A stretch of DNA of 56,571 bases from a virus (IMGVR_UViG_3300018877_000056:1-56571), one strand, 5' to 3'; positions 19,832 through 34,409 are shown, counted from the stretch's first letter. A program made the numbers and translations. Notes: generated by a model not told the origin, from the letters alone.

Positions 19832-19920
19832 GGGGGGAGGTCAAAAGTCCAGAGCCTTCCCACCATGGACCGGCGCCCTCAGTCAAATGCGAAATGCCGC
19901 AAGTTTTCAGAAAAAGTTCC
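19832..19920 (+). other. Putative helper cos packaging site
   Basis: G-run GGGGGGAGGTCAAAAG...GGACCGGCGCCCTCAGTCAAATGCGAAATGCCGCAAGTTT between HNH and terS; copied in the satellite. Confidence 0.75.
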
Positions 19921-20410: not shown

Positions 20411-21930
20411 CGGTTCCGAGCGGCGAGGGGGCAGGCGGCCCGTTCGTCCTCCGGGAATGGCAGAAACAGTTCATCCGGGACATCTACGAGCCGCACGCTC
20501 TCACCAAGGGGCAGTATCGGCGCCAGGTTAGACGGGCCATCCTCTCGATTGCCCGTAAGAACGGCAAGACGGCTCTGATTGCGGCTCTCGTGCTGGTCCA
20601 TCTGGTCGGGCCGGAAGCCATCCAGAACGGGGAGATCTACTCCGCGGCGAACGACCGGGAGCAGGCAGGACAGGTCTACAAGGTCGCCTCGCAGATCGTG
20701 AAGGCAGACCCGGAGCTTTCAACCATGCTCCGCTGCGTTGACTCAACGAAAACGATTGCCTGCTATAGCAATGGGTCATTCTACAAAGCCATTTCAGCAG
20801 AGGCGGGCACGAAACATGGCCTCAACCCGAGTTTCGTCATCTTTGACGAGCTGGCTCAAGCGAAAGATCGCGAACTTTACGACGTTCTTGATACTTCGAT
20901 GGGTGCTCGTGCGGAGCCGCTCTTTGTAACCATCTCGACGCAGAGCAACGACCCCGAGCACATCCTGTCGAAGCTCATTGACGACGGGCTGGGGGCGAAA
21001 GACCCGACTATCGTCTGCCATCTCTACGCTGTTCCTGAGGAGCAGGAGGACATCTTCGACCCGAAGTGCTGGAAGCTGGCGAACCCGGCTCTAGGCGACT
21101 TCCGCGACTTCGATGACCTGAAGGCTATTGCCGACAAGGCACGGCGAATGCCAGCCGAGGAGCCGAAGTTCCGCAACCTCTACCTCAACCAGCGCGTGGC
21201 GCCGGTCGCATCCCTCATCTCCCGAGCCGAATGGATGGCCTGCAAGGGCGAGGTTGAATTCGAAGATGGCGAGGAAGTCTATCTCGGCTTGGACCTGTCC
21301 TCGATCAACGATCTGACGGCCCTTGTGATGGTCAGCGCGAGCGACCCGAGCCGAGTACAACCCTTTCTCTGGAAGCCGAAAGACTTCCTCAAGGAGCATT
21401 CAAACCGGGACTTTGGCCGAGGCAACCACCGCTTTGTCGAGTGGCACAAGCAGGGGTACCTTCTGGCGACCCCAGGCCGCTCGATCGACAAGGAAGTGAT
21501 CGCCCGCCACATCGCAGACCTTTGCGGCCGCTACCGCGTCCTCGGCATGGCCTATGACCGCTGGCGGATTGACGACTTGATCAAGGAATTCGACCGCATC
21601 GACTTCGCCTCTCATAAAGATGGCGAGAAGGGCGATGGGTTGCGGATCATCCCCTGGGGCCAGGGCTTCAAGGACATGACGCCGGCCATTGACGCGATGG
21701 AACTGGCGGTGATCGACCGGAAGCTGGTCCACGACAACAACCCTGTCCTCAACTGGAACATGGCGAACGCCGTCGCGGTCACGGATCCGGCAGGCGGACG
21801 CAAGATCGACAAGAATAAGGCCCGGTTCCGCATTGACGGCGCGGTGGCGCTCACGATGGCGCTTGGGCTGAAGTCTCGTGACCGCAAGGACGAGCGAAAG
21901 CCCGACTACCAGATGTTCGTGCTGGGCTGA
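20284..21930 (+). CDS. terL: Terminase large subunit
   Basis: Walker A ARKNGKT, IFDE Walker B, GLDLS and RIDGAVA nuclease motifs; start uncertain (20242 or 20284). Confidence 0.95.
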   Translation: MGRPPRAGSKGKGRSATSRKQAKEQVRRPDRAARVIAFIEALTVPSGEGAGGPFVLREWQKQFIRDIYEPHALTKGQYRRQVRRAILSIARKNGKTALIAALVLVHLVGPEAIQNGEIYSAANDREQAGQVYKVASQIVKADPELSTMLRCVDSTKTIACYSNGSFYKAISAEAGTKHGLNPSFVIFDELAQAKDRELYDVLDTSMGARAEPLFVTISTQSNDPEHILSKLIDDGLGAKDPTIVCHLYAVPEEQEDIFDPKCWKLANPALGDFRDFDDLKAIADKARRMPAEEPKFRNLYLNQRVAPVASLISRAEWMACKGEVEFEDGEEVYLGLDLSSINDLTALVMVSASDPSRVQPFLWKPKDFLKEHSNRDFGRGNHRFVEWHKQGYLLATPGRSIDKEVIARHIADLCGRYRVLGMAYDRWRIDDLIKEFDRIDFASHKDGEKGDGLRIIPWGQGFKDMTPAIDAMELAVIDRKLVHDNNPVLNWNMANAVAVTDPAGGRKIDKNKARFRIDGAVALTMALGLKSRDRKDERKPDYQMFVLG

Positions 21931-21943: not shown

Positions 21944-23071
21944 ATGAACCGGATGTATTCGGTCCTCCACGTTAAGGCTGTGGAGGAGGAGCAGCGCATT
22001 ATCCGCGGCGTGGCCACGACACCCAATCCCGACCGGGTCGGGGACATCGTGGAGCCCTTGGGCGTCCAGTTCAAGAACCCGATGCCACTGCTGCACCAGC
22101 ACGACCACAATCGTCCTGTCGGCACTGTCACCTTTGACAGACCCACCAAGGACGGCATCACCTTCAAGGCGCGCCTCCCGAAGATCGAGGAACCTGGCCC
22201 ACTGCGTGACCGCGTGGAAACGGCTTGGGGCGAGATCAAGGCCGGTCTGGTCCGTGCCGTCTCCATCGGCTTCCGCGCTCTCGAATACGCCTTCCTGGAT
22301 GAAGGCGGGATCCGCTTCACCAAAAGCGAGGTCCTTGAACTCTCTCTCGTCTCCGTGCCGGCCAATGCCGACGCGGTGATCTCCACCATCAAGTCGATCG
22401 ACGCCCCCTTGCTCGCCGCGACCGGCAAAGAGCCCAAGGCGGATGATCGGCCTGTCCGCCCGGGCGCTGCCGGGAAAACCGTCAAATCCGTCAACTTGCG
22501 CCCGAAGGAGGGCACGAACATGAAGACCATTGCAGAACAGATTGCGGCGCTTGAGGCCTCTCGTCAGGCCAAGTCCGCGCGCATGGCCGAGGTCATGCAG
22601 AAGTCCATCGATGAGGGCCGTTCGACCGATCCGGCCGAGCAGGAGGAGTTCGACACCCTCGAGGGCGAGGTGGTCGCCATCGACGGCGACCTGAAGCGGC
22701 TCCGGGCCCTGGAGAAGGCCCAGGCCGCCTCTGCCAAGCCGGTTTCCGGCCAGAAGTCCGACGAAGGCACGGCTGCCCGCTCCCGCATTCAGGTCCAGCC
22801 CGTCGAGAAACTCGACAAGGGCATCGGCTTCGCCCGCCTGGCCAAGGTCAAGGCGATCGCGAAGCTGGATGGCGAGAGCGTCCGCACCGTGGCGAAGGAA
22901 CTGTATGGCGAGAACTCGTCCATCTACGGCCTGTTCGTCAAGGCCCCGGTCCCGGCCGGCACCACGCAGGACGGCAACTGGGCGGCTCCCCTCGTCGGCG
23001 AAGGCACCGATGTGATCGCCGACTTCGTGGAGTTCCTGCGGCCAAGAACAGACATGCGCCTTGCGGCGTGA
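21944..23071 (+). CDS. Prohead protease-major capsid fusion, 5' part (interrupted by satellite at 23033-23043)
   Basis: HK97 protease motifs LLHQHDH, AVSIGF, ELSLVSVPAN; coiled coil; capsid N-terminus ending DFVEFLRP. Confidence 0.92.
   Translation: MNRMYSVLHVKAVEEEQRIIRGVATTPNPDRVGDIVEPLGVQFKNPMPLLHQHDHNRPVGTVTFDRPTKDGITFKARLPKIEEPGPLRDRVETAWGEIKAGLVRAVSIGFRALEYAFLDEGGIRFTKSEVLELSLVSVPANADAVISTIKSIDAPLLAATGKEPKADDRPVRPGAAGKTVKSVNLRPKEGTNMKTIAEQIAALEASRQAKSARMAEVMQKSIDEGRSTDPAEQEEFDTLEGEVVAIDGDLKRLRALEKAQAASAKPVSGQKSDEGTAARSRIQVQPVEKLDKGIGFARLAKVKAIAKLDGESVRTVAKELYGENSSIYGLFVKAPVPAGTTQDGNWAAPLVGEGTDVIADFVEFLRPRTDMRLAA
23033..23043 (+). repeat. Satellite left att core TTCCTGCGGCC
   Basis: Identical to 33528-33538. 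Confidence 0.9.
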
Positions 23072-23096
23072 AATAAATCTAGAACATCAAAGACTT

Positions 23097-23119
23097 AGCC
23101 GCTCCCGAGCGGCTTTTTT
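23097..23119 (+). terminator. Rho-independent terminator just inside the satellite left end
   Basis: AGCCGCT-CCCG-AGCGGCT-TTTTT. Confidence 0.8.
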
Positions 23120-23153
23120 CATGTCTGCCGCTCGTTACAACGAGCACCAACAG

Positions 23154-23217
23154 AATCAATGACTTAACAAGACGGCCCAACGCAATCCGGCACGTCCACG
23201 CGACAACGACGCAACAA
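23154..23217 (+). promoter_or_regulatory. IHF site and integrase arm-type repeats of the left att arm
   Basis: AATCAATGACTTA fits WATCAANNNNTTR; ACGCGACAA-CG-ACGCAACAA echoes 33473-33492. Confidence 0.6.
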
Positions 23218-23238
23218 CAAACTGAGAAAGCATGCGAC

Positions 23239-23460
23239 ATGGAGAGATACATGGAGACCCCTCTTAACAGCACCGATCTGCTGCATGGGATGGAGGCCAT
23301 CGCGGCCTTCCTCGGCATCAAGAAAAGGCAGGCACAGCACTGGGCTGACACGACCGACATGCCGACATTCAAGATCGGCCGGACCGTGTGCGCTCGCCGG
23401 TCGAGCCTCAAGGAATGGCTTGCCAAGCGTGAACGCGGGGAGGCAGCCAATGACCGATGA
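23239..23460 (+). CDS. Satellite excisionase/AlpA-like HTH protein
   Basis: DLLHGMEAIAAFLG...MPTFKIGRTVCARRSSLKEWL. Confidence 0.8.
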   Translation: MERYMETPLNSTDLLHGMEAIAAFLGIKKRQAQHWADTTDMPTFKIGRTVCARRSSLKEWLAKRERGEAANDR

Positions 23461-23701
23461 CATCCTTGTCGCCACCATTCGCAAGAATTCCCGCGAGGAG
23501 ATCCGGGTCAGCCTGGGGGAGTATCAGGGCCATACCGTCGCGCACGCCCGTGTCTGGTTCAAGGCTGCCGATGGGACGATGCGTCCCTCTAGGTCGGGTC
23601 TCGCCTTCCGGGTGGACCTCCTGCCTGAGATTGCCCGCGCTCTGAGCGAGGCGAACGACCACGCTGAAAGTCTCGGCCTTGTCGCTCCCGCTCCCCGGTA
23701 A
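23450..23701 (+). CDS. PC4/p15-like ssDNA-binding protein
   Basis: RKNSREEIRVSLGEYQG...RVWF...PSRSGLAF. Confidence 0.75.
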   Translation: MTDDILVATIRKNSREEIRVSLGEYQGHTVAHARVWFKAADGTMRPSRSGLAFRVDLLPEIARALSEANDHAESLGLVAPAPR

Positions 23702-23724
23702 GCCAGCGGCACCGGAGGCGCGGA

Positions 23725-24243
23725 ATGAGCGCAAAGAAACGACGCAACAGCATCGGGCAACAATTCATCGCCCATCGCCGCGATATGAGAGAGGCCCCGG
23801 CCTGGAGGCACCTGCCGGACAATGCCCGGCGCATCCTCGACCGGCTGGAGCTCGAACACATGAGGCATGGCAGCGCTGAGAATGGCCGGCTGCCCTGCAC
23901 CTATGCCGACTTCGAAAAGGCAGGCATCCGGCGCAAGTCGATTGCCCTGGCCATCCGGCAGTGTGTGGGTTTGGGCTTCCTTGAAGTCACAAGACAGGGT
24001 CGCCGATCCGTGGCCGAGTTCAGAACGCCCTCTCTCTACAGGCTTACTTATGTGCACGGGACCGGCCGCAGCCAGGCCCCGACCGACGAGTGGCAGAGGA
24101 TCAGCACGGATGAGCATGCGCTTGCTGTGCTGGAGGCTCTAAAGGCTGTACCCTCCCGAGATCTAGAAAGTAGGGGCAATAGCGCCCCTAGGACTGTAGG
24201 GGCGAAAACGACCCCGGCACATGGTCTCCATAAGGGGCGATAG
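23725..24243 (+). CDS. Satellite winged-helix replication initiator (putative)
   Basis: AWRHLPDNARRIL, NGRL, LGFLEVTRQG, PSLYRLTY; iterons at its 3' end. Confidence 0.6.
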   Translation: MSAKKRRNSIGQQFIAHRRDMREAPAWRHLPDNARRILDRLELEHMRHGSAENGRLPCTYADFEKAGIRRKSIALAIRQCVGLGFLEVTRQGRRSVAEFRTPSLYRLTYVHGTGRSQAPTDEWQRISTDEHALAVLEALKAVPSRDLESRGNSAPRTVGAKTTPAHGLHKGR

Positions 24244-24272
24244 CGCCCCCGGATAAGGGGCGAAAACGCCCC
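24172..24272. repeat. Four palindromic iterons AGGGGC(G/A)AWASG(A)CCCC (putative satellite origin)
   Basis: Copies start at 24172, 24198, 24233, 24256; followed by AT-rich TTTTTAATTT. Confidence 0.75.
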
Positions 24273-24300
24273 CGGCTTTTTAATTTCAGCAGGTATCGAG

Positions 24301-24582
24301 ATGACACAGCAACGAGGCTCACGCCGCGAGGGCATCGCGCATGCCAAGCCGACGAGGCAATACGCATGGCAGATGCGAAACCCTGAGAAGCGCCGAGCCC
24401 ATCTTGCGGTTCAGCAGGCGTTGAGACGGGGCCAACTCGTGCGCCAACCATGCGCTGTTTGCGGGACCACTCAGAACGTGGATGCCCATCACGAAGATTA
24501 TCGAGCGGCGCTTGAGGTGAAATGGTTGTGCCGACGCCATCACAAGCAGAGGCACCGACAGATGAGGTGCGAGGGTGGGTGA
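24301..24582 (+). CDS. Satellite HNH-like Zn-binding protein
   Basis: CAVCG...DAHHEDY...WLCRRHH; immediately before the cos-like array. Confidence 0.7.
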   Translation: MTQQRGSRREGIAHAKPTRQYAWQMRNPEKRRAHLAVQQALRRGQLVRQPCAVCGTTQNVDAHHEDYRAALEVKWLCRRHHKQRHRQMRCEGG

Positions 24583-24850
24583 GGGGCGGTGTCTCTCTGC
24601 TCCCACTCCTGAGGTCCCGGACCGGCGCCCTCAGTCAAACGCGAAATGCCGCAAGTTTCCATAGGGGGGAGCCTCCAGGCTCAAAGACCCTTAGGCCGGA
24701 ACCGGTGATCGGCCCAAACTTCTCGTTTTTGCAGATTGATGTACTGCGACGTGAATTCTGCAACGAGGGGGGCACGGTCGAAATCTCGGCCGCCCAATCC
24801 CGGACCGGCGGTCCAAGCTTTCCTTTCCAAAACCTGTAGAAAAAAGATTT
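24583..24850 (+). repeat. Array of three cos-like units
   Basis: G-run followed 37-38 nt later by ACCGG, three times; unit 1 (24619-24658) is 39/40 identical to 19867-19906. Confidence 0.75.
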
Positions 24851-24854
24851 CAGG

Positions 24855-25220
24855 ATGGATGAAACGAACACCCTCCTGCGAGCCTTGATTGCTGAGGTGA
24901 AGGGGCTCCGAGCCGATCTGGCACGGCAGACAGGGGCAGAAGACCCAGCCTCAACCCTCGGGGATCTGGTGGAGGCTATCGCCTTCACCGTAGGGGATCG
25001 CGTGTTTACTGCTCCAGAACTCGCAAAGTTTGCAGAGGCAGCACCTCCCGAAAAGCTGCAGATCGCACTCCATGCAGCGGGCGGCACGAACCCTCGCAAA
25101 GTCGGGAAACTATTGCGCCGCATGGAAAAGCAGGAGTGCGGCGGCTGGCGTGTAGTTCAAATCGGCAGCGACCGCGACGGGCTGCTCTGGAAAGTACAGC
25201 CTGCAAGTTTGGCCCGCTGA
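24855..25220 (+). CDS. Satellite hypothetical protein
   Basis: 121-aa ORF, same strand as satellite operon. Confidence 0.55.
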   Translation: MDETNTLLRALIAEVKGLRADLARQTGAEDPASTLGDLVEAIAFTVGDRVFTAPELAKFAEAAPPEKLQIALHAAGGTNPRKVGKLLRRMEKQECGGWRVVQIGSDRDGLLWKVQPASLAR

Positions 25221-25300
25221 AACTCGCAAACTCGCACAGTCGATTGAGACGGCGAAAGTACACCCTCAATATACCCTCAGAAATCCACGACCAAAGGAAC

Positions 25301-26368
25301 ATGACCTTGGACCGTCTCGCCAGTCTTACCAGCCAATACGAGTCCCATTCGAAGGCGATGGCCTTCATTCAGTTCGCCATTACCAAGGCGATAGCACGAG
25401 ACCAGAGTGTAGACCCGCTGGAATTGTTTCAGGCGCGGTATCCGCATTCCAAGCATCTCGCCGCGATCCAGAAGGCCGCTGTCTCAGCCGGATCGACGGA
25501 CAACTGGGGCGCTCCTCTTGTCCCCCTGCCGGGCTATGCCTCAGAGTTCTTGGAGCTGGTAAGGCCTGCGAGTGTCGTAGGCCGGATGCGCGGTTTCCGC
25601 CGCGTCCCATTCCGGGTGAAGTTCACCAGGCAGACCTCCGGAGCGACGGCGGGCTGGGTTGGCGAGTTCAAGCCCATCCCGGTCGGCAAGCTCGATATGA
25701 GCACGGAGACTTTCGAGCATTCGAAGGTTGCTGGCATCATCGTCATTTCCAAGGAATTGGCCCGCTCCGCCGATCCGGCTGCCGAGCCCCTGATCCAGCG
25801 GGATATCGTGGCGGCCGTCGCCAAGTTCACGGACGAGCAATTCCTTGACCCTGCGGTGGCAGAGACGGGCGTACACCCGGCCTCCGTCACCCACGGTGCA
25901 ACGGAGGTGGTATCCAGCGGCAACGGCGCCGATGCAATTGCCGCCGATCTTAAGGCACTTGTGGCTGCTGTTGTCGGATCAGGTGCGCTGCTCACCGCAC
26001 CGTATTTCGTCATGAAGCCCTCGACGGCTCTTCACCTTGCGACCCTTGAGGGGACGAACGGTAAGGTTTTCCCGAACGTCAATGTCATGGGCGGTGACAT
26101 CTGGGGCATTCCGGTCCTCGTCTCTGGTAATGCGGGCGATCAGATCACGCTAGTTGACGCAGCCGAGCTGATGCTTGCCGACGGCGATGTTCAGTTGGAC
26201 ACGGCCGAGGAAGCAGCCCTCCAAATGGACGATGCGCCAGCCGATGGCGCGGTTCAGTTGGTCAGTCTGTTCCAGACCAACAGCATTGCCATCCGGGCCA
26301 TCCGCACAATCCGGTGGCGCATGCGCAACCCCGGCGCCGTCGCCTACCTCTCTGGCGTGACCTACTGA
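25301..26368 (+). CDS. Satellite HK97-fold major capsid protein
   Basis: Homologous to helper capsid (VPF, WVGE.KP.P, KVA.I.V, SLFQTNS.A.R); AAAGGA RBS before 25301. Confidence 0.92.
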   Translation: MTLDRLASLTSQYESHSKAMAFIQFAITKAIARDQSVDPLELFQARYPHSKHLAAIQKAAVSAGSTDNWGAPLVPLPGYASEFLELVRPASVVGRMRGFRRVPFRVKFTRQTSGATAGWVGEFKPIPVGKLDMSTETFEHSKVAGIIVISKELARSADPAAEPLIQRDIVAAVAKFTDEQFLDPAVAETGVHPASVTHGATEVVSSGNGADAIAADLKALVAAVVGSGALLTAPYFVMKPSTALHLATLEGTNGKVFPNVNVMGGDIWGIPVLVSGNAGDQITLVDAAELMLADGDVQLDTAEEAALQMDDAPADGAVQLVSLFQTNSIAIRAIRTIRWRMRNPGAVAYLSGVTY

Positions 26369-26378
26369 GGGCCCCGCC

Positions 26379-26591
26379 ATGGATGACGAGGCCTGGAACA
26401 AGAAGCTCGTTGAAGCCGCCGATGGCGCGATGGACGGTGGCGGCAAGAGCCTGGGCGAACGCTTCGGCGCGATGCTTGCCGCATGCGTCAGAACCGTTCG
26501 GGACGAGATGCGGGAGAAGCACCGCAAGACAGACGAGCGCCTCACCGCCATCGAGGAGCATCTGACAGCCATACGAGAGGGCAGGGAATGA
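26379..26591 (+). CDS. Small coiled-coil protein
   Basis: GAGG RBS; follows capsid gene. Confidence 0.55.
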   Translation: MDDEAWNKKLVEAADGAMDGGGKSLGERFGAMLAACVRTVRDEMREKHRKTDERLTAIEEHLTAIREGRE

Positions 26592-26815
26592 CCACGTTCA
26601 AGATCAAGTCCTTTGCTGACCTCGAGGCCTGCTTCGATGAGATCGCAGAAGGGAAGCTGCAGGACACGGCACGACTCCTCTCCCGCAAGGGCGCGACTGA
26701 TGAGGAGATCGAGGCCGAGCTAGCCCATCAGCGAGCGGCGATGGCAGCATCCAGGGCTCAGTTCATGGAACAGGCCAAGGGCTTTATCCAGCGCGGTGGA
26801 GAGAGCCTCCAGTGA
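26588..26815 (+). CDS. Hypothetical protein
   Basis: ATGA overlap; MTTFKIKSF... Confidence 0.5.
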   Translation: MTTFKIKSFADLEACFDEIAEGKLQDTARLLSRKGATDEEIEAELAHQRAAMAASRAQFMEQAKGFIQRGGESLQ

Positions 26816-26879
26816 GATTGCTGTGCCCTCCCTTCGCAGCAAGCGGTCGGCTCCTGAAGCGCCAGGGCCGACCGCACCC

Positions 26880-26970
26880 GGGGGGGTATTTGCCAGCTTT
26901 GGAAAGAACGGATCGTGGACCGGCGCCCTCAATCAAACGCGCGATGCCGCAAATTTCAGTAAAAAGTTCC
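26880..26970 (+). repeat. Fourth cos-like unit (helper-type core)
   Basis: G7...GGACCGGCGCCCTCAATCAAACGCGCGATGCCGCAAATTTCAGTAAAAAGTTCC, similar to 19867-19920. Confidence 0.75.
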
Positions 26971-26980
26971 GATCAACCCC

Positions 26981-27229
26981 ATGGATGAAACCCAAACTCG
27001 CCAATGTGGCGCAAGAACCCGCTCAGGAGAGCCGTGCAGGCGATCTCCGGCCCCCGGCAAGCGCAGATGCCGGCTCCATGGTGGCGCTCCTGGCAGCGGG
27101 GCTCCTACAGGCGAGCGCAACGGTGCATGGAAGGGCGGACGATACAGCAGGGCGATCACGCCCGAACAGAGACACCTGGCCTGGAAGGAATATTGGGCCG
27201 AGAAGAGGGCTAAGAGACATGGCAACTGA
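26981..27229 (+). CDS. HGGxSTG-domain protein (TerS-like position)
   Basis: CGARTRSGEPC...RCRLHGG..GSGAP.G.RN..WKGGRYS. Confidence 0.8.
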   Translation: MDETQTRQCGARTRSGEPCRRSPAPGKRRCRLHGGAPGSGAPTGERNGAWKGGRYSRAITPEQRHLAWKEYWAEKRAKRHGN

Positions 27230-27452
27230 AGTGATCGAGGCAGACCCCCACGACGTGGTGGCACAATATGCCCTTGAACGGCTCATGGAGATGGTGAGCG
27301 ACACGCCTATCCCGTCCCGTGCTTTGGCAATCGCCATGATTGCCAACGGTGGCGGCGCTATTGCCGCCCTCGATGGTCGTGAGGCGGCTGCGCAACTCCT
27401 TCGGGACGCTGCAGACCGGATCGAGAACCCCGAACTAGCCGGGAGAGCATGA
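27219..27452 (+). CDS. Hypothetical protein
   Basis: Overlapping start MATEVIEADP. Confidence 0.5.
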   Translation: MATEVIEADPHDVVAQYALERLMEMVSDTPIPSRALAIAMIANGGGAIAALDGREAAAQLLRDAADRIENPELAGRA

Positions 27453-27826
27453 CGATGAGCAGGAAACTCCATTACGTGATGTCAACATTCGGTGGCGAGC
27501 CAGCAATGTTCTGCCTCACCCGCCGCAGGCTCGAAATCTTCGAAGTAGGCCTTGAGGCCGGAAGCGCATTCGAGTTCCTCCGTAGGCTCCTGAACGGCAC
27601 CTGGGCAACGAGGGATCTCGTCAGCCTCCTTCAGGACGCTTACCGCGAACACGACGGGAACGTGAACCTCAAGGCGCATTCCCACGTGCGAGCCGTGATC
27701 GAGAAGAACGGTCCCGGGCACTATGTCGGCTTGGCCGCCAAAATCATCGAAGCCGCTCTCTTCGGAATACCAGAGAAGGATGCAGTCTTTGATGAGGCCA
27801 AGCAGCTCACAGGAGAGGCAGGTTGA
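27449..27826 (+). CDS. Satellite tail assembly chaperone-like protein
   Basis: FLRRLLNGTWATRDL resembles helper 39694 LLHRLMDGSWMVDDA. Confidence 0.6.
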   Translation: MTMSRKLHYVMSTFGGEPAMFCLTRRRLEIFEVGLEAGSAFEFLRRLLNGTWATRDLVSLLQDAYREHDGNVNLKAHSHVRAVIEKNGPGHYVGLAAKIIEAALFGIPEKDAVFDEAKQLTGEAG

Positions 27827-28269
27827 GCCAGGGCCTGAAGCGCTGGGAGCAGAGGCTAAAGAACATACCGAAGACGGTACGGGCGCGAGTGCGTGAAGCC
27901 ATTCACCAGGGAGCGGCTGAAATCGTTTCGGCTCAGAAGCGCTTGGCGCCAGTCAGGACCGGCAAACTGCGAGACAGTATCACGGCCACCATTGGCGGGC
28001 AGGCTCCAAAATACTCCCAGTTCGGCCGCATGGGCGGCAAGGGTGACGCCGATCTCACAGCAGTCATCACGGTCGGCAACTCCGAGGTTCGATATGCGCA
28101 CCTCGTGGAGTTCGGTTCCGCTCCGCATATCGCAGGCGGTAGGTTCAAGGGGGCGGACCATCCCGGCACGACCGCACAGCCCTTTTTCTATCCCGGCTAT
28201 CGCATGGTGCGGCGACGGGTGAAGAGCCGCATTACCCGCGCCGTCAACAAGGGCATCAAGGAGGCCTGA
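27823..28269 (+). CDS. Satellite HK97 gp10-like neck/tail protein
   Basis: QKRLAPVRTGKLRDSI, YAHLVEFG, HPGTTAQPFFYPG; paralogue of 38291-38797. Confidence 0.88.
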   Translation: MSQGLKRWEQRLKNIPKTVRARVREAIHQGAAEIVSAQKRLAPVRTGKLRDSITATIGGQAPKYSQFGRMGGKGDADLTAVITVGNSEVRYAHLVEFGSAPHIAGGRFKGADHPGTTAQPFFYPGYRMVRRRVKSRITRAVNKGIKEA

Positions 28270-28272
28270 GCC

Positions 28273-30300
28273 ATGGCAGTTGAACGCGATGCAATGATCG
28301 TCTCGGTTGAGGCGCGCATCAACAATATCGAGCGTCAAATGGCGAAGGCCTCAGCCACATCGCGGAAGCATTTCACGCGGATCGAGTCCGATGCAAAGAC
28401 CATGGCGAGCCGGGTAAATGCCACTATGGGCAAAGTCGGGGAGGGGCTGAAAACAGCCTTCGTAGGGTTCGCCGGTGGTCTTGTTGGGGGGCTTGCTGCC
28501 GGAGGTGTTCTAGGAGTCCTCGGAAGCGTCCAGGGAGCCATGTCTGAATTGGCGAACGTGGCGGCTGAGGCCAAGCGGGCGGGTCTAGGCGGAGAAGCCT
28601 TCCAGGAATTGAGTTATGCCGCCATGCAGAGCCGGGTGAGCATTGACGCTCTGACGGACGGCCTCAAGGAGATGCAGCTCCGGGCGGATGAATTCATCGT
28701 CACGGGCAAGGGCAGCGGCGAGGAAGCCTTTAAGCGCCTCGGCTACTCGGCAACCGAACTGAATGAGAAGCTGAAGGACCCGCCAAAGCTGTTCGAAGAG
28801 ATCATCGACAAGCTAGGGCAACTCGATAAGTCGTCACAGATCCGCATTGCCGATGAGATCTTCGGCGGTGAGGGTGGCGAGCAGTTTGTGCGCTTTCTGG
28901 ACAAGGGGGCGGGTGCAATCGCCCGGGCGCGCCAGGAGGCAAGGGACACCGGCAATGTCCTTAGTGAGGATATGCTGAAGAAGGCCGTCGAGATCGATCA
29001 GCAGTTCGAGACCATAGCCCGCACCATCGGAACCAATGTCAAGGGCGCAATTGTCAGCGTGGTGTCCGCTCTAAAGGAGTTCGTGGGCGAGGCGAGCATG
29101 CTCAACAGCAGGAGCATTGAGGCAGTCTCCGACAGGATCAGCAAGATCAAGACAGAAATGGAAAGCCTGCAGAAGATCGAGGCTGATGCACGGCGAATGT
29201 TCCCGAACGCTCTCGAAAGCGCCTTCGCAGGCAATGCAGACAAACTGAAAGCCTACCGCGACGAGCTGGGCAAGCTCGAGGAACACCTGGGGCGACTCAA
29301 GACGAGCGCCCCGACCTCTCCGGGAGAGGCCCCGCCGACAACGCCGGCAGGCGGCAAGGGAGATCTGAGCCAAATCGACGTTGCCGGTAGCAAAAAGAAG
29401 GCACTGGAGGGCTATGCCGCGCTCGAACAAGCGGCCCTAGCTCGCATCAATACTCTGCGGGTGGAGCAGCAGGCTCTCGGCCTCACGACGGGAGAGGCTG
29501 AAAAGCTCCGGTTTGAGCAACAACTCCTGGCTGAAGCAACGCGAGACGGGACGATACTTACCCAGACACAAAAGGATCGTATCTCGGAGCTCGCGGGGCA
29601 GTACGGAGCACTTACGGCAGCAATTGAGCAAACTGAGAAGGCACAGCAGGAAGCTAATCAGGCTGCGGAATATTTCGGGGATGTGGCCGTTGATGCTATA
29701 TCCGATCTGGCCTTAGAGGGGCGCAATCTCGATGACGTGCTGCAGAACATCGCGAAGAGCCTCGCCCAGGCAGCAATTCAAGCCGCCATCCTCGGCCAAG
29801 GGCCTCTTGCCGGTCTCCTCGGGACGAGTGGCGTGAATGGTGCGCCTGGGGGCATCATTGGCGCATTGCTAAAATCATTCTCTCCGGTCAAAGCGGCTAC
29901 AGGCGGTTACATTAGAGGGAGAGGCACAGGAACGAGCGACAGCATTCCGGCCCGTCTCAGCAATGGCGAATATGTCGTGAATGCCAGAGCGACAGCTGCC
30001 AATCGAAAGCTGCTGGACGCAATCAACTATGGGCGTGTGCCGCGCTTCGCTGAGGGGGGATTTGTGGGCGTGCCGACCGTGCCGACACCTATTGCGCGCG
30101 GAAGTGGCGGCGGGATGAAAACAGAGGTCCACATCCACGAAGCCCAGGGAGTGAAGACCACCGTTAAAGAGACGCGTGGACCTAGTGGTGTGCGGTTCGA
30201 TGTGTATGCCCGTCAACTCGTTGAGGGCATGGTGGCAGACGGTAGCCTAGATCGGGTTGCAAAAGGCCGCTGGGGGGTGAATCCCATGCGGGGACGTTAG
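28273..30300 (+). CDS. Satellite tape measure protein
   Basis: 675 aa helical; ATGGYIRG.GT.TSDSIPARLSNGEYV; C-terminus matches helper TMP. Confidence 0.88.
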   Translation: MAVERDAMIVSVEARINNIERQMAKASATSRKHFTRIESDAKTMASRVNATMGKVGEGLKTAFVGFAGGLVGGLAAGGVLGVLGSVQGAMSELANVAAEAKRAGLGGEAFQELSYAAMQSRVSIDALTDGLKEMQLRADEFIVTGKGSGEEAFKRLGYSATELNEKLKDPPKLFEEIIDKLGQLDKSSQIRIADEIFGGEGGEQFVRFLDKGAGAIARARQEARDTGNVLSEDMLKKAVEIDQQFETIARTIGTNVKGAIVSVVSALKEFVGEASMLNSRSIEAVSDRISKIKTEMESLQKIEADARRMFPNALESAFAGNADKLKAYRDELGKLEEHLGRLKTSAPTSPGEAPPTTPAGGKGDLSQIDVAGSKKKALEGYAALEQAALARINTLRVEQQALGLTTGEAEKLRFEQQLLAEATRDGTILTQTQKDRISELAGQYGALTAAIEQTEKAQQEANQAAEYFGDVAVDAISDLALEGRNLDDVLQNIAKSLAQAAIQAAILGQGPLAGLLGTSGVNGAPGGIIGALLKSFSPVKAATGGYIRGRGTGTSDSIPARLSNGEYVVNARATAANRKLLDAINYGRVPRFAEGGFVGVPTVPTPIARGSGGGMKTEVHIHEAQGVKTTVKETRGPSGVRFDVYARQLVEGMVADGSLDRVAKGRWGVNPMRGR

Positions 30301-30304
30301 GACC

Positions 30305-30619
30305 TTACCGTGTTGTCTCTGGCGTCCCGGCGAGATCATCCAGAAACGAGCTATAGGGGAGACGTGCCAGGATAGTGCCCCTTGATGCCACCATCGCCGC
30401 AGTTGTGCCGCGGCAAAGCAGAGTCACATTGCCGGTGGTTCGCTTGCAGAAGGCGTCAGGGCTGTCGATGAAGTTCAAGCCAGACGGCCCCATAACAATG
30501 GCGGTTACGCCGTCCGGGATTGCACCGATCGGTTTGATGACGAACACCCGTAGCCCCGCAAGGTAGGCAATGAAAACTAGGGCGGCCAACCCGAACGAAA
30601 CTAGGAATAAAGCTCTCAT
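30305..30619 (-). CDS. Membrane-anchored cargo protein
   Basis: N-terminal hydrophobic helix; FVIKPIGAIPDG; two Cys. Confidence 0.55.
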   Translation of the reverse strand: MRALFLVSFGLAALVFIAYLAGLRVFVIKPIGAIPDGVTAIVMGPSGLNFIDSPDAFCKRTTGNVTLLCRGTTAAMVASRGTILARLPYSSFLDDLAGTPETTR

Positions 30620-30668
30620 CAACTCACGATGGCACAGGCTGGGCGCAGTTCGCAAGGCTAGTAAATTC

Positions 30669-31262
30669 TTAAGCGGCCCACCAAGATAGCAAAGCGAGAG
30701 CGCCCCTGACGCCCCAGTAAACCAGCGTAAACACCCCAACCAGCATACTCAATCCGATAATGATATTGATCGAGCGCGGGAAGATGCGATTGGGGGCAAC
30801 ACGAATATGCTTGCCCTGTGCTCCATCGAAACGAACGTTTACCAAGTGGGGCATATCATTGTTCAGATGGAGCAAATAGAGATTGAAGCTTTCTTTTGGG
30901 TTTAACCGTTCGACCTCAATAATTAATCGCTCATCAGGATTGTCTCTGATGACAAAGGGGAGTGGAGGAGAGAGCTCCAAATGGTAGGGCCGGAAGTTGA
31001 ATATAATCTCTACATTATTGGCTGTTTGCCTACCTGCGTTGGTAAAAAAGAGCGTTTGTGTTCTAACGGGAGAGTATTTTCCTTCTCCGTCTTTGGGTAG
31101 GAGGTATGCCGACTGTAATTCTGAGTAATGTAGTTTGGGTTTGGCCGCAAAGAACCCAAGGATCAGCGATCCTAAGCCCGTCAAAAGTGTCGTAATGATA
31201 CCAGCTGTTATTTCTTTATTATTATTTGCGAACTCTAATACTGCGGCAAACATTGCTTCCAC
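30669..31262 (-). CDS. Two-TM cargo protein, AT-rich
   Basis: Terminal hydrophobic helices, NAGRQTANNV beta-domain. Confidence 0.65.
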   Translation of the reverse strand: MEAMFAAVLEFANNNKEITAGIITTLLTGLGSLILGFFAAKPKLHYSELQSAYLLPKDGEGKYSPVRTQTLFFTNAGRQTANNVEIIFNFRPYHLELSPPLPFVIRDNPDERLIIEVERLNPKESFNLYLLHLNNDMPHLVNVRFDGAQGKHIRVAPNRIFPRSINIIIGLSMLVGVFTLVYWGVRGALALLSWWAA

Positions 31263-31526
31263 GAAGTCCAGCTAAGCTACTTTAAGCAATGAGTGGACTT
31301 GATCGTAGCTGAAGAGTCAATGCTGTTGGGACGTGTCAGCGCGCGCGAAAACCCCTTCCGCCTTGCCGGGCGGTGGGTTCGCGTGTCATATTTGTAATTG
31401 GAGCGTAGCAACTCCCGAAGCGGGCCCTTGCCGGGGCTGGCGCTTCAGTCACAGAGCGGTGGCGATCCCTTGCCGGGGATAGGCCATCGAAAGCAAACGC
31501 GCTTCACCTAGTGAAGCGTGACCGGC

Positions 31527-31626
31527 TCACTATGCCGGGAGTCCATCCGTTATACAAGACCCTTTCGAGGGGAAGACGGTTGGGCGTGCTCTCTGTGGCG
31601 CGTTGCTACCCTCCCGGTGCCAGTGA
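31527..31626 (+). ncRNA. c4/CI-type antisense immunity RNA (putative)
   Basis: Closing stem TCACTATGCCGGGAG/CTCCCGGTGCCAGTGA; carries CTCTGTG and GTTGCTAC complementary to flanking CACAGAG and GTAGCAA targets on both sides. Confidence 0.65.
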
Positions 31627-31707
31627 CGACCGCTGGCAACTGGAGACAAACCCGTAGCAAGGCGAGTCTCCCCGGCCGTAGCAAGCCGGTTCTCCACAGA
31701 GTAACCC

Positions 31708-32154
31708 ATGACTTCACAATTCTACGCCCGCAGTGGGCCAATAGCGTCTCCGGCTATCGATCCGGAGCGCACGCGTCTCCGCGCCTTGAGAGCTGAGATT
31801 GAGCGAGAGTTAGAGCGGATGATTGATCTGCTCGACGCCATCGACGGCGACCCGGACTTTGAACCTTCCTTTGGCTCGGTTGCCCCGGGACACGTTGACG
31901 AGGCTGAACCCGACGCAGACCTTGAACCTTCCCTCGGCTGGACGAGCACCTATGCCCATGGCTCCGATCAGGACCTTGAGGAGGAGCATGACGGTCGGGA
32001 GCCCGATGAGGATTTCGAGGGCAACACCGATGACAACGGCATAGGCGACCGTGGCGGGCTTGATGAGCAGTACGGCATTGATGCGACTGTGACCCGCTTC
32101 CCGCTCTACGGAACGATTGACGGCACCGCTCACATCATCCCTGAAACGTACTGA
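31708..32154 (+). CDS. Acidic D-x-D-x-EPS repeat protein
   Basis: IDLLDAIDGDPDFEPS, DADLEPSLG, DQDLEEEHDGREPD. Confidence 0.7.
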   Translation: MTSQFYARSGPIASPAIDPERTRLRALRAEIERELERMIDLLDAIDGDPDFEPSFGSVAPGHVDEAEPDADLEPSLGWTSTYAHGSDQDLEEEHDGREPDEDFEGNTDDNGIGDRGGLDEQYGIDATVTRFPLYGTIDGTAHIIPETY

Positions 32155-32161
32155 TCCAAAC

Positions 32162-32194
32162 GGCCCGGCTGCATTCCGTGGCCGGGCCTCTTTT
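32162..32194 (+). terminator. Rho-independent terminator before satellite integrase
   Basis: GGCCCGGC...GCCGGGCC-TCTTTT. Confidence 0.6.
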
Positions 32195-32211
32195 CATGAA
32201 AGGAGAGCAAC

Positions 32212-33519
32212 GTGGCAAGCGTGAACAAAAGAGAGTGGACCTATAAGGGCGAGACAAAAACCGCCTGGGTGGTTCGGTATACGGACCAAGGCGGCAAGCG
32301 TCGAATGAAGACTTTCGAGAAGAAGAAGGAGGCGGATGCTTTCCGGGTTCAAGTAGAAAGCGAGATCACGCAGGGAGTGCATACCGCCTACAACGAGAGC
32401 GTGACCTTCGACAAGGCGGTCGATGAGTTTATAAAGGACTGCTATCGGCGGGAGAAGCTAGGGGACATAACGCTAAGTGGCGTGAAGGGCTACGAGTATC
32501 GGCTTGAACATTACACAGTCCCCAAGTTCGCTAAGCGTCGTGTCTCCACGATCACGGCGGCAGAAATCCAAACCTATGTAGAGGAACTGCGCGAGAAGCT
32601 GTCCCCCCATACCATCCATGGGATCTATGGCTCGCTGCATGTGCTGCTGACCTTTGCCGTGTCCAAGAAGTGGGTTCGCCGGAATGTGCTGCGAGACGAG
32701 CCCTGCAAGCTGCCGACCAAGCCGAAGCGCAAGTCGATCCCGACCAAGGACGACATAAGGGCGCTCCTAGAGGCTGCTTCTCGCCTCGACAAGGGAGAGA
32801 ACCTCCTGACGTTCGTAAACCGCTCTGTGGTCATTGCCTGCGGCGTCTTCTGCGGTTTCCGTCCAGGGGAGACCTTTGGCCTGCATTGGGAGGACATCGA
32901 CTGGGAAAGGGGAGTGATCCATGTTCGCCGTGCGCACTCGAAGGTGAACGGGCTGAAAACGCCCAAGACCGAGGCGGGCTTCCGTGACGTGCCGCTCACC
33001 GAGCCTGTGCGCCGTGCTCTCTATCAGGCCGCGCGCTATTGGATCATCAGGAGGATGGCGACGGAGACAGGCGGAAGACGAGGCTCTATGAACCCGAAGG
33101 CTATTTTCAGCCGCATCGCCCGCATGTGGGAAACAGAGGTGGTTCACGTCGATCCGACGCAACTTAAGGGCTTCGTGATCCTGACGAAGGTGGGCAAACC
33201 CATGTCGGCAACAGCCAGCGCGACGACGTTCTGGAAGCGCCTTATGGATGCGGCCGGACTGTACGATCACGAGGCCAAGAGAAACAAGTTCACGCCTCAC
33301 GCCCTGCGGCATGTGGCAGCCAGTCTGCTAATCGAAGCGGGGCTCGATGACATGAACCTAAAGCGCTTCATCGGGCATGCCTCGATCCAGACAACCAAGG
33401 ACATCTACGGTCATCTTTTCCCGACCGATCAGCGCATGGTTGCGACAACAGAGGCCGTTGCGGCGAGCCTAGACGCGACAAGAACGCGACAAATCGCTGT
33501 AAGGCATTCATTCAACTAA
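32212..33519 (+). CDS. int: Satellite tyrosine integrase
   Basis: GFRPGE, PKT, PHALRH, GHASIQTTKDIYGH; ends 8 nt before att core; GAAAGGAG RBS. Confidence 0.95.
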   Translation: MASVNKREWTYKGETKTAWVVRYTDQGGKRRMKTFEKKKEADAFRVQVESEITQGVHTAYNESVTFDKAVDEFIKDCYRREKLGDITLSGVKGYEYRLEHYTVPKFAKRRVSTITAAEIQTYVEELREKLSPHTIHGIYGSLHVLLTFAVSKKWVRRNVLRDEPCKLPTKPKRKSIPTKDDIRALLEAASRLDKGENLLTFVNRSVVIACGVFCGFRPGETFGLHWEDIDWERGVIHVRRAHSKVNGLKTPKTEAGFRDVPLTEPVRRALYQAARYWIIRRMATETGGRRGSMNPKAIFSRIARMWETEVVHVDPTQLKGFVILTKVGKPMSATASATTFWKRLMDAAGLYDHEAKRNKFTPHALRHVAASLLIEAGLDDMNLKRFIGHASIQTTKDIYGHLFPTDQRMVATTEAVAASLDATRTRQIAVRHSFN

Positions 33520-33527
33520 CAAAAATA

Positions 33528-33538
33528 TTCCTGCGGCC
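33528..33538 (+). repeat. Satellite right att core TTCCTGCGGCC
   Basis: Identical to 23033-23043. Confidence 0.9.
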
Positions 33539-34409
33539 CCGCACCATCCTCGGCCGGTTCGGCCAGAACGGCATCCCGTCCCTCCGGAACGTGCCCTTCA
33601 ATGTGCCGCTGGTCGGCCAGACCGAAGGCGGCGAGGGCTACTGGGTGGGTGAAGGCAAGGCGAAGCCGCTGACCCGGTTCGGCTATGAGCGCAACATCCT
33701 TGAGATCTTCAAGGTGGCGAACATTGCTGTGGTCACGGAAGAGCTTCTGCGTCGGTCCAACCCGGCCGCCGAGGCGCTGCTCCGCGACAACCTGGCTGCG
33801 GCAATCGCTGCGCGCCTCGACATCGACTTCATCAACCCGGCCAAGGCTCTGGTCGCCGGCGTCTCGCCTGCCTCGATCACCAACGGCTTGACCCCGGTCA
33901 CGTCGTCCGGTGGCGATGCCGACGCGATCCGCGCCGACATCCGCGCCCTGATGGCGACCTTCATCGCGGCGAACAACGCCCCGACGAACGGCGTCTGGAT
34001 CATGGGCTCGGCGACTGCTCTCGCTCTGTCGATGATGGTCAACCCGCTCGGCCAGGCCGAATTCCCGGGCATCACGATGAATGGCGGCACCTTCGCAGGC
34101 CTGCCGGTGATCGTGTCCGACTACATCCCCGCGGGGACGGTCGTCCTGGCCAACGCCAGCGACATCTATCTGGCCGACGAAGGCGGCGTTCAGGTGGATA
34201 TGTCCCGCGAGGCCTCGCTGGAGATGGCGGACAACCCGGCGCATGACTCAAGCACACCGACCGGCGCCACGTCGCTCGTGTCGATGTTCCAGACCAACTC
34301 GGTAGCGTTCCGCGTCGAGCGGTTCATCAACTGGGCTCGTCGCCGTCCGTCGGCTGTCGCGATCCTGACCGGCGCGACCTGGGGCGCTCCTGCTGCCGAG
34401 ACTCCCTAA
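33528..34409 (+). CDS. Major capsid protein, 3' part (functional only after satellite excision)
   Basis: Frame reads FLRPRTILGRFGQNGIPSLRNVPFNVPL...SMFQTNSVAFRVERFINW and joins 21944-23043 in frame. Confidence 0.92.
   Translation, partial: FLRPRTILGRFGQNGIPSLRNVPFNVPLVGQTEGGEGYWVGEGKAKPLTRFGYERNILEIFKVANIAVVTEELLRRSNPAAEALLRDNLAAAIAARLDIDFINPAKALVAGVSPASITNGLTPVTSSGGDADAIRADIRALMATFIAANNAPTNGVWIMGSATALALSMMVNPLGQAEFPGITMNGGTFAGLPVIVSDYIPAGTVVLANASDIYLADEGGVQVDMSREASLEMADNPAHDSSTPTGATSLVSMFQTNSVAFRVERFINWARRRPSAVAILTGATWGAPAAETP

What the first reader, a model, noticed from the sequence alone, without database searches (positions are those of the whole stretch)
23033..33538. Satellite integrated inside the helper's major capsid gene; excision rebuilds the gene
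Seen: TTCCTGCGGCC at 23033 and 33528 flank 10,495 bp. Joining 21944-23043 to 33539-34409 gives 1971 nt, an uninterrupted 656-aa protein reading ...DFVEFLRPRTILGRFGQNG... Established: helper-embedded PICIs that integrate in prophage late genes have been described. Inference: an alphaproteobacterial example with atypical content, in which the helper cannot make heads until the satellite excises.
Basis: partly seen in the sequence, partly recalled or inferred. Interest (0 to 1): 0.9.

Follow-up and report, generated by a model that had tools for sequence, protein, structure and literature searches.

The report
Phage satellite embedded in helper capsid gene
A 10.5-kb mobile element with its own integrase and capsid gene sits precisely inside the capsid gene of a prophage in a soil alphaproteobacterium, and it belongs to a previously undescribed family that always uses this same site, echoing a lifestyle so far reported only for E. 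coli-type satellites.

Summary
TTCCTGCGGCC occurs only at 23033 and 33528. Removing one copy plus the 10,484 bp between them gives a 1971-nt, 656-aa open frame. That frame is 93% identical, without gaps, to an uninterrupted 659-aa protease-capsid fusion named Microvirga lenta.

The insert is a real mobile element, not a misassembly:
- Four other integrated relatives (integrase 63-90% identical) lie at the same capsid codon in diverged capsid alleles.
- A fifth relative is a free 10.7-kb circle carrying the predicted attP.
- In a sequencing run that holds this DNA, contigs break exactly at both repeats. A 49-nt contig joins the element's right end to its left end (attP). No attB contig was seen.

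The element has a tyrosine integrase, an Xis/AlpA-like HTH, HNH, its own capsid homologue without protease or scaffold, gp10, chaperone and tape-measure genes. No terminase, portal or tail tube was found. It carries two copies of a sequence from the helper's HNH-terS gap, and the shared sequence differs from pair to pair.

It works like the helper-embedded PICIs of Enterobacteria (PMC10111431), but its integrase is unrelated. I class it as a new variant of a known kind.

The parts
19867..19909 (+). Helper cos-like segment. It lies between helper HNH (19228-19554) and the terS start (ATG 19923).
   Evidence: It is shared with two places in the insert. Helper HNH, TerS and TerL were identified by PHROGs. 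Function as cos is inferred from its position.
21944..23043 (+). Helper protease-scaffold-capsid fusion gene, 5' part (capN). As it stands it reads on to a stop at 23071 (375 aa).
   Evidence: phrog_617 positions 10-370 and phrog_80 protease. 93% identical to P0003 residues 1-369.
23033..23043 (+). attL core (TTCCTGCGGCC)
   Evidence: The contig break falls here.
23044..33527 (+). Body of the embedded element (10,484 bp), co-oriented with the helper late genes
23097..23122 (+). Terminator-like hairpin plus T run just inside the left end
   Evidence: Found by the scan. Fold z-score is -2.98, with similar hairpins of different sequence at the same place in L009 (z -3.05) and L096 (z -3.82). L014 was not significant (z -0.78).
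23239..23460 (+). HTH_17 protein, a candidate excisionase/AlpA-like regulator
   Evidence: PF12728 E 1.3e-5, 25.8 bits, under Pfam's cut-off of 27. The homologue in the free circle L097 scores 32.8 bits. Homologues are present in 5 of 5 integrase-bearing elements.
23450..23701 (+). PC4-like (ssDNA-binding fold) protein
   Evidence: PF02229 E 1.1e-6, 28.5 bits against a cut-off of 25.
23725..24243 (+). 172-aa protein of unknown function
   Evidence: No Pfam, PHROG or PADLOC hit. The Atlas gives only hypothetical clusters, one with HTH_36 in 18% of members.
24301..24582 (+). HNH endonuclease of the element
   Evidence: phrog_2340 E 1.2e-21. Only 25% identical to the helper HNH.
24619..24661 (+). 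cos-like copy 1
   Evidence: 95% identical over 43 nt to helper 19867-19909, E 5.7e-13. First seen as a stray match.
24855..25220 (+). 121-aa protein of unknown function upstream of the capsid gene
   Evidence: No family hit. The Atlas structure search resembles the C-terminal parts of primase-type proteins, which is a lead only.
25301..26368 (+). The element's own major capsid homologue (355 aa), without protease or coiled-coil scaffold
   Evidence: PF05065 E 6.7e-15 and phrog_617 positions 273-626. 41% identical to the helper's capsid part. A homologue is present in 5 of 5 integrase-bearing elements.
26916..26973 (+). cos-like copy 2, followed by an 82-aa ORF (26981-27229)
   Evidence: 86% identical over 59 nt to helper 19866-19923.
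27449..27826 (+). Tail assembly chaperone-like protein (GTA-gp10 family)
   Evidence: PF11836 E 9.3e-9.
27823..28269 (+). HK97 gp10-like tail completion/neck protein
   Evidence: PF04883 E 8.9e-14 and phrog_5. 41% identical to helper 38291-38797.
28273..30300 (+). Tape measure protein (675 aa; the helper's is 686 aa)
   Evidence: phrog_10574 E 2.4e-119. 31% identical to the helper TMP over the C-terminal half.
30305..31262 (-). Two opposite-strand ORFs (144 and 197 aa) that look hydrophobic by eye. Cargo of unknown function.
   Evidence: Listed. No Pfam or PADLOC hit.
31708..32154 (+). Acidic 148-aa protein just upstream of the integrase
   Evidence: Conserved next to the integrase in L009 (76%), L014/L097 (40%) and L015 (39%). 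No family assigned.
32212..33519 (+). Tyrosine integrase
   Evidence: PF00589 E 5.7e-23 and phrog_1. R217, K252, H363, R366, H389 and Y399 are invariant in 15 clade members. Assigning those positions to the catalytic set is from my own knowledge.
33528..33538 (+). attR core (TTCCTGCGGCC)
   Evidence: The contig break falls here.
33528..34409 (+). Helper capsid gene, 3' part (capC)
   Evidence: phrog_617 positions 363-626. 94% identical to P0003 residues 364-649.

Best explanation
This is a helper-embedded phage satellite of a new alphaproteobacterial family.

Integration. Its tyrosine integrase recombines an attP, whose core is the 11-nt repeat, with the codons for F-L-R-P (residues 364-367) of the protease-scaffold-capsid fusion gene of an HK97/933W-type siphovirus prophage. 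The element is co-oriented with the late operon. In this state the helper gene ends after 375 aa, and a terminator-like hairpin sits about 55 nt inside the element.

Excision (inferred). After induction, the integrase cuts the element out as a 10.5-kb circle, probably helped by the HTH_17 protein. That would rebuild the capsid frame exactly.

Packaging (inferred). The circle is recognised by the helper's terminase through copies of the helper's own HNH-terS intergenic (cos-like) sequence. It is packaged into particles to which the element contributes its own capsid protein, neck protein, chaperone and tape measure. The helper supplies terminase, portal, protease/scaffold, tail tube, baseplate and lysis.

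Shown here:
- the clean split of the gene;
- the conserved site across relatives;
- the circular form of a relative;
- the attP junction in reads;
- the shared cos-like sequences;
- the gene content.
For: 1. Clean split and exact restoration in silico.

2. Same site elsewhere. I scanned 12 loci. Seven of them carry an integrase 63-90% identical to this one. Those seven make five distinct elements, because L094 equals L009 and L014 equals L097.
- The 4 integrated elements (L009/L094 named Microvirga lupini, L095, L096, L015) all have the capsid 3' part starting at P0003 residue 364 directly after the integrase.
- Their capC identities to ours are 56-91%.
- The capsid 5' part was found on the other side in 3 of 4. 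The L015 contig is only 3.1 kb.
- 0 of 6 loci with integrases at 41% identity or less had a capsid match beside the integrase.

3. Free form. L097 (10,756 bp) has a 56-bp terminal overlap. L014 (10,878 bp) is the same element, 99.96-100% identical, but circularly permuted. In it the integrase is followed by a core and a left arm instead of capsid sequence.

4. Run X1 (Logan contigs).
- One contig covers exactly 23033-33538, at depth 21.4.
- The flanking contigs have depths 17.7 and 16.2.
- A 49-nt contig of depth 8.4 joins 33509-33527 to 23033-23062, which is the attP junction.

5. The element shares 43 nt (95%) and 59 nt (86%) with helper 19866-19923, just upstream of terS.
- The M. lupini element shares a different 57 nt (96.5%) with its own helper, just after that helper's HNH.
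- The G100 element shares 75 nt (96%) with its helper.
- So 3 of 4 pairs tested are positive, and the sequences differ between pairs.

6. Gene content. Integrase, HTH_17, HNH, capsid homologue, chaperone, gp10 and TMP are present. No terminase, portal, protease or tail tube was found among the ORFs scanned. Integrase, HTH_17 and capsid homologue occur in 5 of 5 integrase-bearing elements.

7. The helper looks complete. It has integrase, exonuclease, Erf, CI, CII, HNH, TerS, TerL, portal, connectors, tail tube, TMP, J, fibre and endolysin.

8. L365, R366 and P367 are invariant in 19 capsid alleles aligned. The site is therefore available in many helpers.
Against: - No attB (restored capsid) contig was among the 5 X1 records laid, and the left flank contig runs unbroken through attL. 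Excision with restoration is therefore not observed directly.
- The attP junction could also come from tandem copies.
- X1 may be the run the assembly came from, and contigs drop rare variants.
- No replication gene was identified in the element.
- Helper dependence, packaging, and any effect on capsid size are untested.
- The G101 pair shows only a weak shared segment near its helper's HNH (30 nt, 87%, E 3e-4).
- The window's HTH_17 hit is under Pfam's cut-off (25.8 against 27 bits).
- The terminator scan found 3 sites in 22800-25300, against 2.5 expected. The count alone is therefore not above chance.
- L014 and L097 may come from one sample, so they count as one observation.
Confidence: 0.8

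Rival explanations
1. Nested cryptic prophage remnant. A small decayed phage happens to use a conserved phage gene as its att site. It has no satellite-helper dependence, and its structural genes are leftovers.
For: The structural genes are only 31-41% identical to the helper's. Gene content varies between relatives: HNH, gp10 and TMP are in only 2 of 5 elements. No replication or regulatory circuit was identified.
Against: Integrated element sizes are 9.6, 9.9, 10.5 and 15.7 kb, and the free circle is 10.7 kb. The capsid homologue is kept in 5 of 5 elements. The catalytic positions of the integrase are intact. Each element carries a copy of its own helper's cos-like sequence in 3 of 4 pairs. 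The attP junction is present in reads. Decay would not keep these features.
Confidence: 0.08
2. Regulatory intervening element that benefits the prophage. The insert acts as a lock on late-gene expression, and programmed excision serves as a switch. This would resemble the elements that interrupt sigK or comK in Firmicutes (recalled from my own knowledge, not from a call).
For: Excision restores an essential gene exactly. A terminator-like hairpin follows attL.
Against: The element carries its own capsid, tail and packaging-related genes and helper cos-like copies. It also occurs as a free 10.7-kb circle. That points to an element that spreads by itself, not one that merely excises and is lost. 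Uninterrupted capsid alleles are far more common. All 120 listed full-length hits are intact fusions of 544-679 aa. The integrase was found in only 2 of 76 genomes of the genus.
Confidence: 0.05
3. Functional composite phage. The insertion has turned a fusion gene into a separate protease-scaffold gene, with the element's own capsid gene taking over head building. The 57-kb composite then propagates as one phage without excision.
For: The truncated product keeps the protease and the coiled coil. The element's capsid protein lacks both.
Against: The attP junction and contig breaks at both cores show a separate form. A relative exists as a free circle. The element has its own cos-like copies. 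A composite 10.5 kb longer than the helper would have to fit the head.
Confidence: 0.04
4. Assembly artefact joining two phages.
For: The genome is a draft of 82 contigs, and the contig is almost entirely prophage.
Against: Logan contigs of run X1 cross attL (to 23062) and attR (from 33509) at the depth of the flanks. The same nested layout is found in four other assemblies, including a genome record named Microvirga lupini.
Confidence: 0.01

Closest known systems
Helper-embedded PICIs (HE-PICI), type 11capE in E. coli NRG857c (Tommasini, Mageeney and Williams 2023, PMC10111431; abstract and passages read; locus fetched)
   Same: Both are elements of about 11 kb inside, and co-oriented with, the major capsid gene of the helper prophage. 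Both have a short identity block (10 bp there, 11 bp here). Both carry their own diverged capsid homologue, which lacks the att sequence; here it reads FLELVRP instead of FLRP. In both, excision is needed to restore the helper gene. Both have captured late genes.
   Different: The integrase is unrelated: the best BLASTP match is 34% over 47 aa, E 0.005. 11capE has the P4-type Arm-DNA-bind_3 domain and ours does not. In 11capE the integrase sits at the left end; here it sits at the right end. We found no AlpA-family (PF05930) or primase gene; 11capE has both. The target is an HK97-type protease-scaffold-capsid fusion, not a lambda E-type capsid. The host is an alphaproteobacterium. In the text passages searched, that paper has 0 mentions of Alphaproteobacteria and 0 of tape measure. 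Its supplements were not available.
   Same: A satellite that encodes its own HK97-fold capsid protein and takes other parts from a helper.
   Different: cf-PICIs are described as carrying a whole head and packaging module and stealing only tails. Here no portal, protease or small terminase was found, while tail-related genes (chaperone, gp10, TMP) are present.
P4 and cos-type PICIs (recalled from my own knowledge)
   Same: Small integrative elements that carry a copy of the helper's cos site, so that the helper terminase packages them.
   Different: No Sid/Psu-type gene or primase was recognised here. The integration site is inside the helper, not in a chromosomal tRNA or other gene.
Marine VEIMEs (PMC9618062; passages read)
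   Same: Small integrase-bearing satellites found in Alphaproteobacteria among other groups. Some encode HNH endonucleases.
   Different: That paper states that VEIMEs encode no major capsid genes, and it describes integration into host genomes. This family always carries a capsid homologue (5 of 5) and sits inside a prophage gene.

Membership tests
HE-PICI (PMC10111431) | [quoted passage not shown] | tested here: met
HE-PICI (PMC10111431) | Integrase belongs to the single HE-PICI integrase clade | tested here: not met
   Tested against the type integrase of 11capE only. BLASTP gives 34% over 47 aa, E 0.005. The N-terminal arm-binding domains differ. No tree was built.
HE-PICI (PMC10111431) | Gram-negative PICI layout: int plus AlpA zone, Bro-N zone, primase/ori zone, late zone | tested here: not met
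   No PF05930 (AlpA) and no primase among the ORFs scanned. An HTH_17 protein and a late zone are present.
HE-PICI (PMC10111431) | The element excises, giving attP, and restores the late gene, giving attB | tested here: inconclusive
   The attP junction contig is present and no attB contig is present. Restoration was shown only in silico.
Phage satellite (general) | Lacks genes needed to form and fill a virion by itself | tested here: met
   No terminase, portal, protease, tail tube, baseplate or lysis gene was found in 23044-33527.
Phage satellite (general) | Carries the helper's packaging signal or redirects packaging | tested here: inconclusive
   Helper-specific shared segments at the expected cos position occur in 3 of 4 pairs. 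Function as cos was not tested.
Phage satellite (general) | Helper-dependent transfer in particles | not testable with these tools
   Needs induction and virion DNA.
cf-PICI | Own complete head and packaging module (capsid, portal, protease, connectors, small terminase) | tested here: not met
   Only the capsid homologue and a gp10-like protein were found. The definition is recalled from my own knowledge.
Tyrosine recombinase | PF00589 catalytic domain with conserved R, K, H-x-x-R, H and Y | tested here: met
   PF00589 E 5.7e-23. R217, K252, H363, R366, H389 and Y399 are invariant in 15 sequences.

The most novel reading that the evidence does not exclude
The insertion point is chosen so that the helper's fusion gene is cut just after its protease and scaffold. 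The integrated element would thereby turn the helper gene into a stand-alone protease-scaffold gene that serves the element's own scaffold-less capsid protein. Satellite heads, probably small ones sized for about 10 kb, could then be built while helper heads cannot. The same portable capsid module also rides on a 10.3-kb ParA plasmid in the same cell (contig C82). One helper would then be parasitised by both an embedded and a plasmid-borne capsid-bearing satellite.
Probability: 0.15. Interest if true: 0.8.

Novelty: new variant of a known kind. Interest (0 to 1): 0.62.

Why it matters
Helper-embedded satellites have been described for one integrase clade of enterobacterial PICIs. I found only PMC10111431 and its preprint as primary reports. 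The search for 'helper-embedded' with 'satellite' and 'prophage' returned 6 papers holding all three terms, and the search for 'HE-PICI' returned 1.

This locus shows that an unrelated integrase lineage in Alphaproteobacteria reached the same lifestyle. It even targets the same kind of gene, the major capsid gene, and again carries its own capsid homologue. That points to convergent evolution and to a real advantage in sitting inside the helper's head gene.

The family offers a defined att site in an invariant capsid motif and a free circular form. It also has packaging-site copies that differ with the helper, and tail genes (tape measure, chaperone, gp10) that I did not find discussed for satellites. 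The one search on that point listed 4 papers, whose listings did not concern such genes. It could be tested in a non-pathogenic soil genus.

Tried and rejected
The contexts of the database integrases P0129, P0132 and P0133 could therefore not be looked up that way. I used the search for related loci and the genome search instead.
- Complex prediction gave no verdict (score 0.00 in two runs, controls not folded). The chains were the element's capsid protein (alignment A3) and helper residues 186-300 (alignment A4). This says nothing either way.
- PADLOC found nothing for the two opposite-strand ORFs, the acidic protein, orf172 or orf121.
- The Atlas look-ups of orf172 and orf121 gave only hypothetical clusters and weak leads.
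- The Rfam scan of 22500-34500 gave one match, below threshold.
- The window's cos-like motif was not found in the other elements or helpers. Only chance-level short matches appeared. Each pair has its own sequence.
- In run X3 only short, diverged pieces matched. I draw nothing from them.
- No attB contig was found in X1. Contigs drop rare variants, so this does not show absence.
- tRNA scan of the window: 0 genes, so this is not a tRNA att site.
- The phage collection holds no close relative of the integrase. All 712 matching records are below 60% identity, and the ten best-ranked rows listed are 24-27% identical.
- Supplements of PMC10111431 were not available. Its site tables might list hosts outside Enterobacteria.

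Full report
OBSERVATION

The 11-nt word TTCCTGCGGCC occurs only at 23033 and 33528. The expected count was 0.07, and 0 of 100 shuffles gave two copies.

The ORF ending at 23071 (P0001, 375 aa) and the frame opening at 33528 (P0002, 293 aa) match one PHROG family of protease-capsid fusions. P0001 covers phrog_617 positions 10-370 and P0002 covers positions 363-626.

A search for longer relatives of P0002 scored 8000 candidates and found 3303 with E at or below 0.001. The 120 listed are 544-679 aa long, and most carry both protease (PF04586) and capsid (PF05065) domains.

The best hit, P0003 (659 aa, named Microvirga lenta by its source), aligns with P0001 over residues 1-369 (93%). It aligns with P0002 over residues 364-649 (94%).

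Joined by reference, the two pieces give 1971 nt and 656 codons with no internal stop. The product is 93.4% identical to P0003 over 649 residues without a gap.

THE SURROUNDINGS

The window is almost a whole contig of a 4.2-Mb, 82-contig genome. It holds a complete-looking temperate siphovirus:
- integrase (1-1062, minus strand), exonuclease, Erf, CI-like repressor and CII-like protein;
- HNH (19228-19554), TerS and TerL (20242-21930);
- the split protease-capsid gene;
- portal (34712-36085), adaptor, head closure and neck;
- tail terminator, major tail protein, chaperone, TMP (40658-42718, 686 aa) and a J-like protein;
- fibre and endolysin.

THE INSERT

The 10,484 bp between the cores read as follows on the plus strand, unless noted:
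- a terminator-like hairpin (23097-23122);
- an HTH_17 protein (23239-23460; 25.8 bits, under Pfam's cut-off of 27);
- a PC4-like protein;
- a 172-aa unknown protein;
- an HNH endonuclease;
- a 121-aa unknown protein;
- a capsid homologue of 355 aa that matches only the capsid part of phrog_617 (positions 273-626);
- small ORFs;
- a GTA-gp10-type chaperone;
- an HK97 gp10-like protein;
- a 675-aa tape measure;
- two opposite-strand ORFs;
- an acidic protein;
- a tyrosine integrase (32212-33519).

No terminase, portal, protease, tail tube or lysis gene was found. The structural genes are diverged copies of helper genes. Identities are 41% for the capsid protein, 41% for gp10, 31% for the TMP over half its length and 25% for HNH.

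At the position of the att site, the element's own capsid gene has two extra codons (FLELVRP). It therefore offers no target for self-insertion.

A FAMILY WITH ONE SITE

The integrase has 15 database clusters at 52-92% identity, after which identity drops to 47% and below. It was found in 2 of 76 genomes of the genus.

Collection scans gave loci with close integrases. I scanned 12 of the fetched loci with the window's proteins.

In the record named Microvirga lupini (L009, which equals L094; integrase 90%), a 9.9-kb relative lies between capsid residues 1-375 and 364-onward. That capsid allele is diverged: the 5' part is 75% identical to ours and the 3' part 61%. The repeat there is TTCCTCCGGCC.

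Three more relatives use the same site:
- In L096 (integrase 69%), a 9.6-kb element occupies the site.
- In L095/G100 (integrase 67%), a 15.7-kb element occupies it.
- In L015 (integrase 63%), the integrase is followed by the capsid 3' part from residue 364. That contig is too short to show the other side.

Six loci with integrases at 41% identity or less had no capsid match next to the integrase.

L365, R366 and P367 of the capsid protein are invariant in 19 alleles aligned. The element's left and right arms next to the core are alike in the window, L009 and L014.

FREE AND EXCISED FORMS

L097 (10,756 bp) has a 56-bp terminal overlap. L014 (10,878 bp) is the same element, 99.96-100% identical, but circularly permuted. 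Together they describe a circle of about 10.7 kb. In it the integrase gene is followed by a core variant and the element's left arm, not by capsid sequence. Its gene order is HTH_17, HNH, capsid, chaperone, gp10, TMP, integrase. The two contigs may come from one sample, so I count them once.

For the window itself, one public run (X1, possibly the source of the assembly) holds the element. All 5 of its Logan contigs that were laid are listed:
- One is 10,506 nt, covers exactly 23033-33538, and has depth 21.4.
- The flanks are separate contigs. One reaches 23062 (depth 17.7) and one starts at 33509 (depth 16.2).
- A 49-nt contig of depth 8.4 joins 33509-33527 to 23033-23062.

Its words cannot come from attL or attR. 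No attB contig was laid, and the left flank contig is not split at the core.

The data therefore show a right-end-to-left-end junction. That means a circle, or possibly tandem copies, together with about a quarter more depth on the element than on the helper. They do not show the restored capsid gene.

LINK TO THE HELPER'S PACKAGING

A stray 40-nt match led to this result. Helper 19867-19909 lies between the HNH gene and the terS start codon at 19923. It recurs in the element at 24619-24661 (95% of 43 nt) and at 26916-26973 (86% of 59 nt).

The same relation holds with different sequences elsewhere:
- The M. lupini element shares 57 nt (96.5%) with its own helper, just after that helper's HNH.
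- The G100 element shares 75 nt (96%) with its helper, downstream of that helper's HNH.
- The G101 pair gave only 30 nt at 87%.

From my own knowledge, cos in HNH-bearing HK97-like phages lies in this interval. Function as cos was not tested here.

COMPARISON WITH WHAT IS KNOWN

Tommasini et al. (PMC10111431; abstract and passages read) described HE-PICIs. The type, 11capE, is an 11-kb element in the capsid gene of an E. coli prophage. It has a 10-bp identity block and its own capsid gene. They mapped 491 further cases at 14 late-gene sites, all from one integrase clade.

I fetched 11capE. Its integrase shares only 34% over 47 aa with ours (E 0.005). It also has a P4-type arm-binding domain that ours lacks. 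Its neighbour is an AlpA-family protein, whereas ours is HTH_17. 11capE also has a primase, and none was found here.

Marine VEIMEs lack capsid genes. Searches found no paper on such an element in this bacterial group (0 papers; none relevant by listing or passages).

VERDICT

The element works like a helper-embedded satellite, but it is not a member of the HE-PICI clade. It is a new variant of a known kind.

The parts of the mechanism that remain inferred are:
- excision on induction;
- packaging by the helper terminase;
- the role of the element's capsid, neck and tape-measure proteins;
- any reduction in head size.

Noticed in passing
G000 contig C82 (L119, 1-10434): A second capsid-bearing element in the same genome. 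It is a 10,434-nt contig with a 141-nt exact terminal overlap, so it is a circle of about 10.3 kb. It carries ParA, an RHH protein, an AAA_25 protein, a GNAT and a LuxR-type regulator. It also has a module homologous to window 24719-27210 (71% nt identity; capsid protein 63-66% identical). No integrase was found among the ORFs scanned.
   Followed up: partly
L098 (IMGVR_UViG_3300013485_000003), 1-15645: A more distant integrase (41% identical) with the same acidic neighbour lies between a TerS-TerL pair and a major tail gene. The stretch holds two tape-measure genes. It may be another embedded configuration at a different site.
   Followed up: partly
window 31533-31627 (+): A weak match to Rfam sRNA-Xcc1 (34.9 bits, gathering score 53, E 0.0047) in the gap upstream of the acidic protein and integrase genes.
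   Followed up: no
window 9211-10089 (-): The gene next to the helper's CI-like repressor matches the candidate defence family PDC-M24B of PADLOC (E 3.8e-12).
   Followed up: no
window 34712-36939 (+): Two successive helper ORFs both match portal family phrog_2271. The first covers positions 30-430 and the second positions 771-857 of 859. The portal may be split, or it may be followed by a fused-domain relative.
   Followed up: no
window 23044-23049 and 33539-33544: After the core, the element's left arm and the capsid gene both encode Arg-Thr with different codons. The truncated helper product therefore keeps the native residues up to position 369.
   Followed up: partly
window 26981-27229 (+): An 82-aa ORF right after cos-like copy 2. 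It is 85% identical to an ORF on plasmid C82, and no family was assigned.
   Followed up: no
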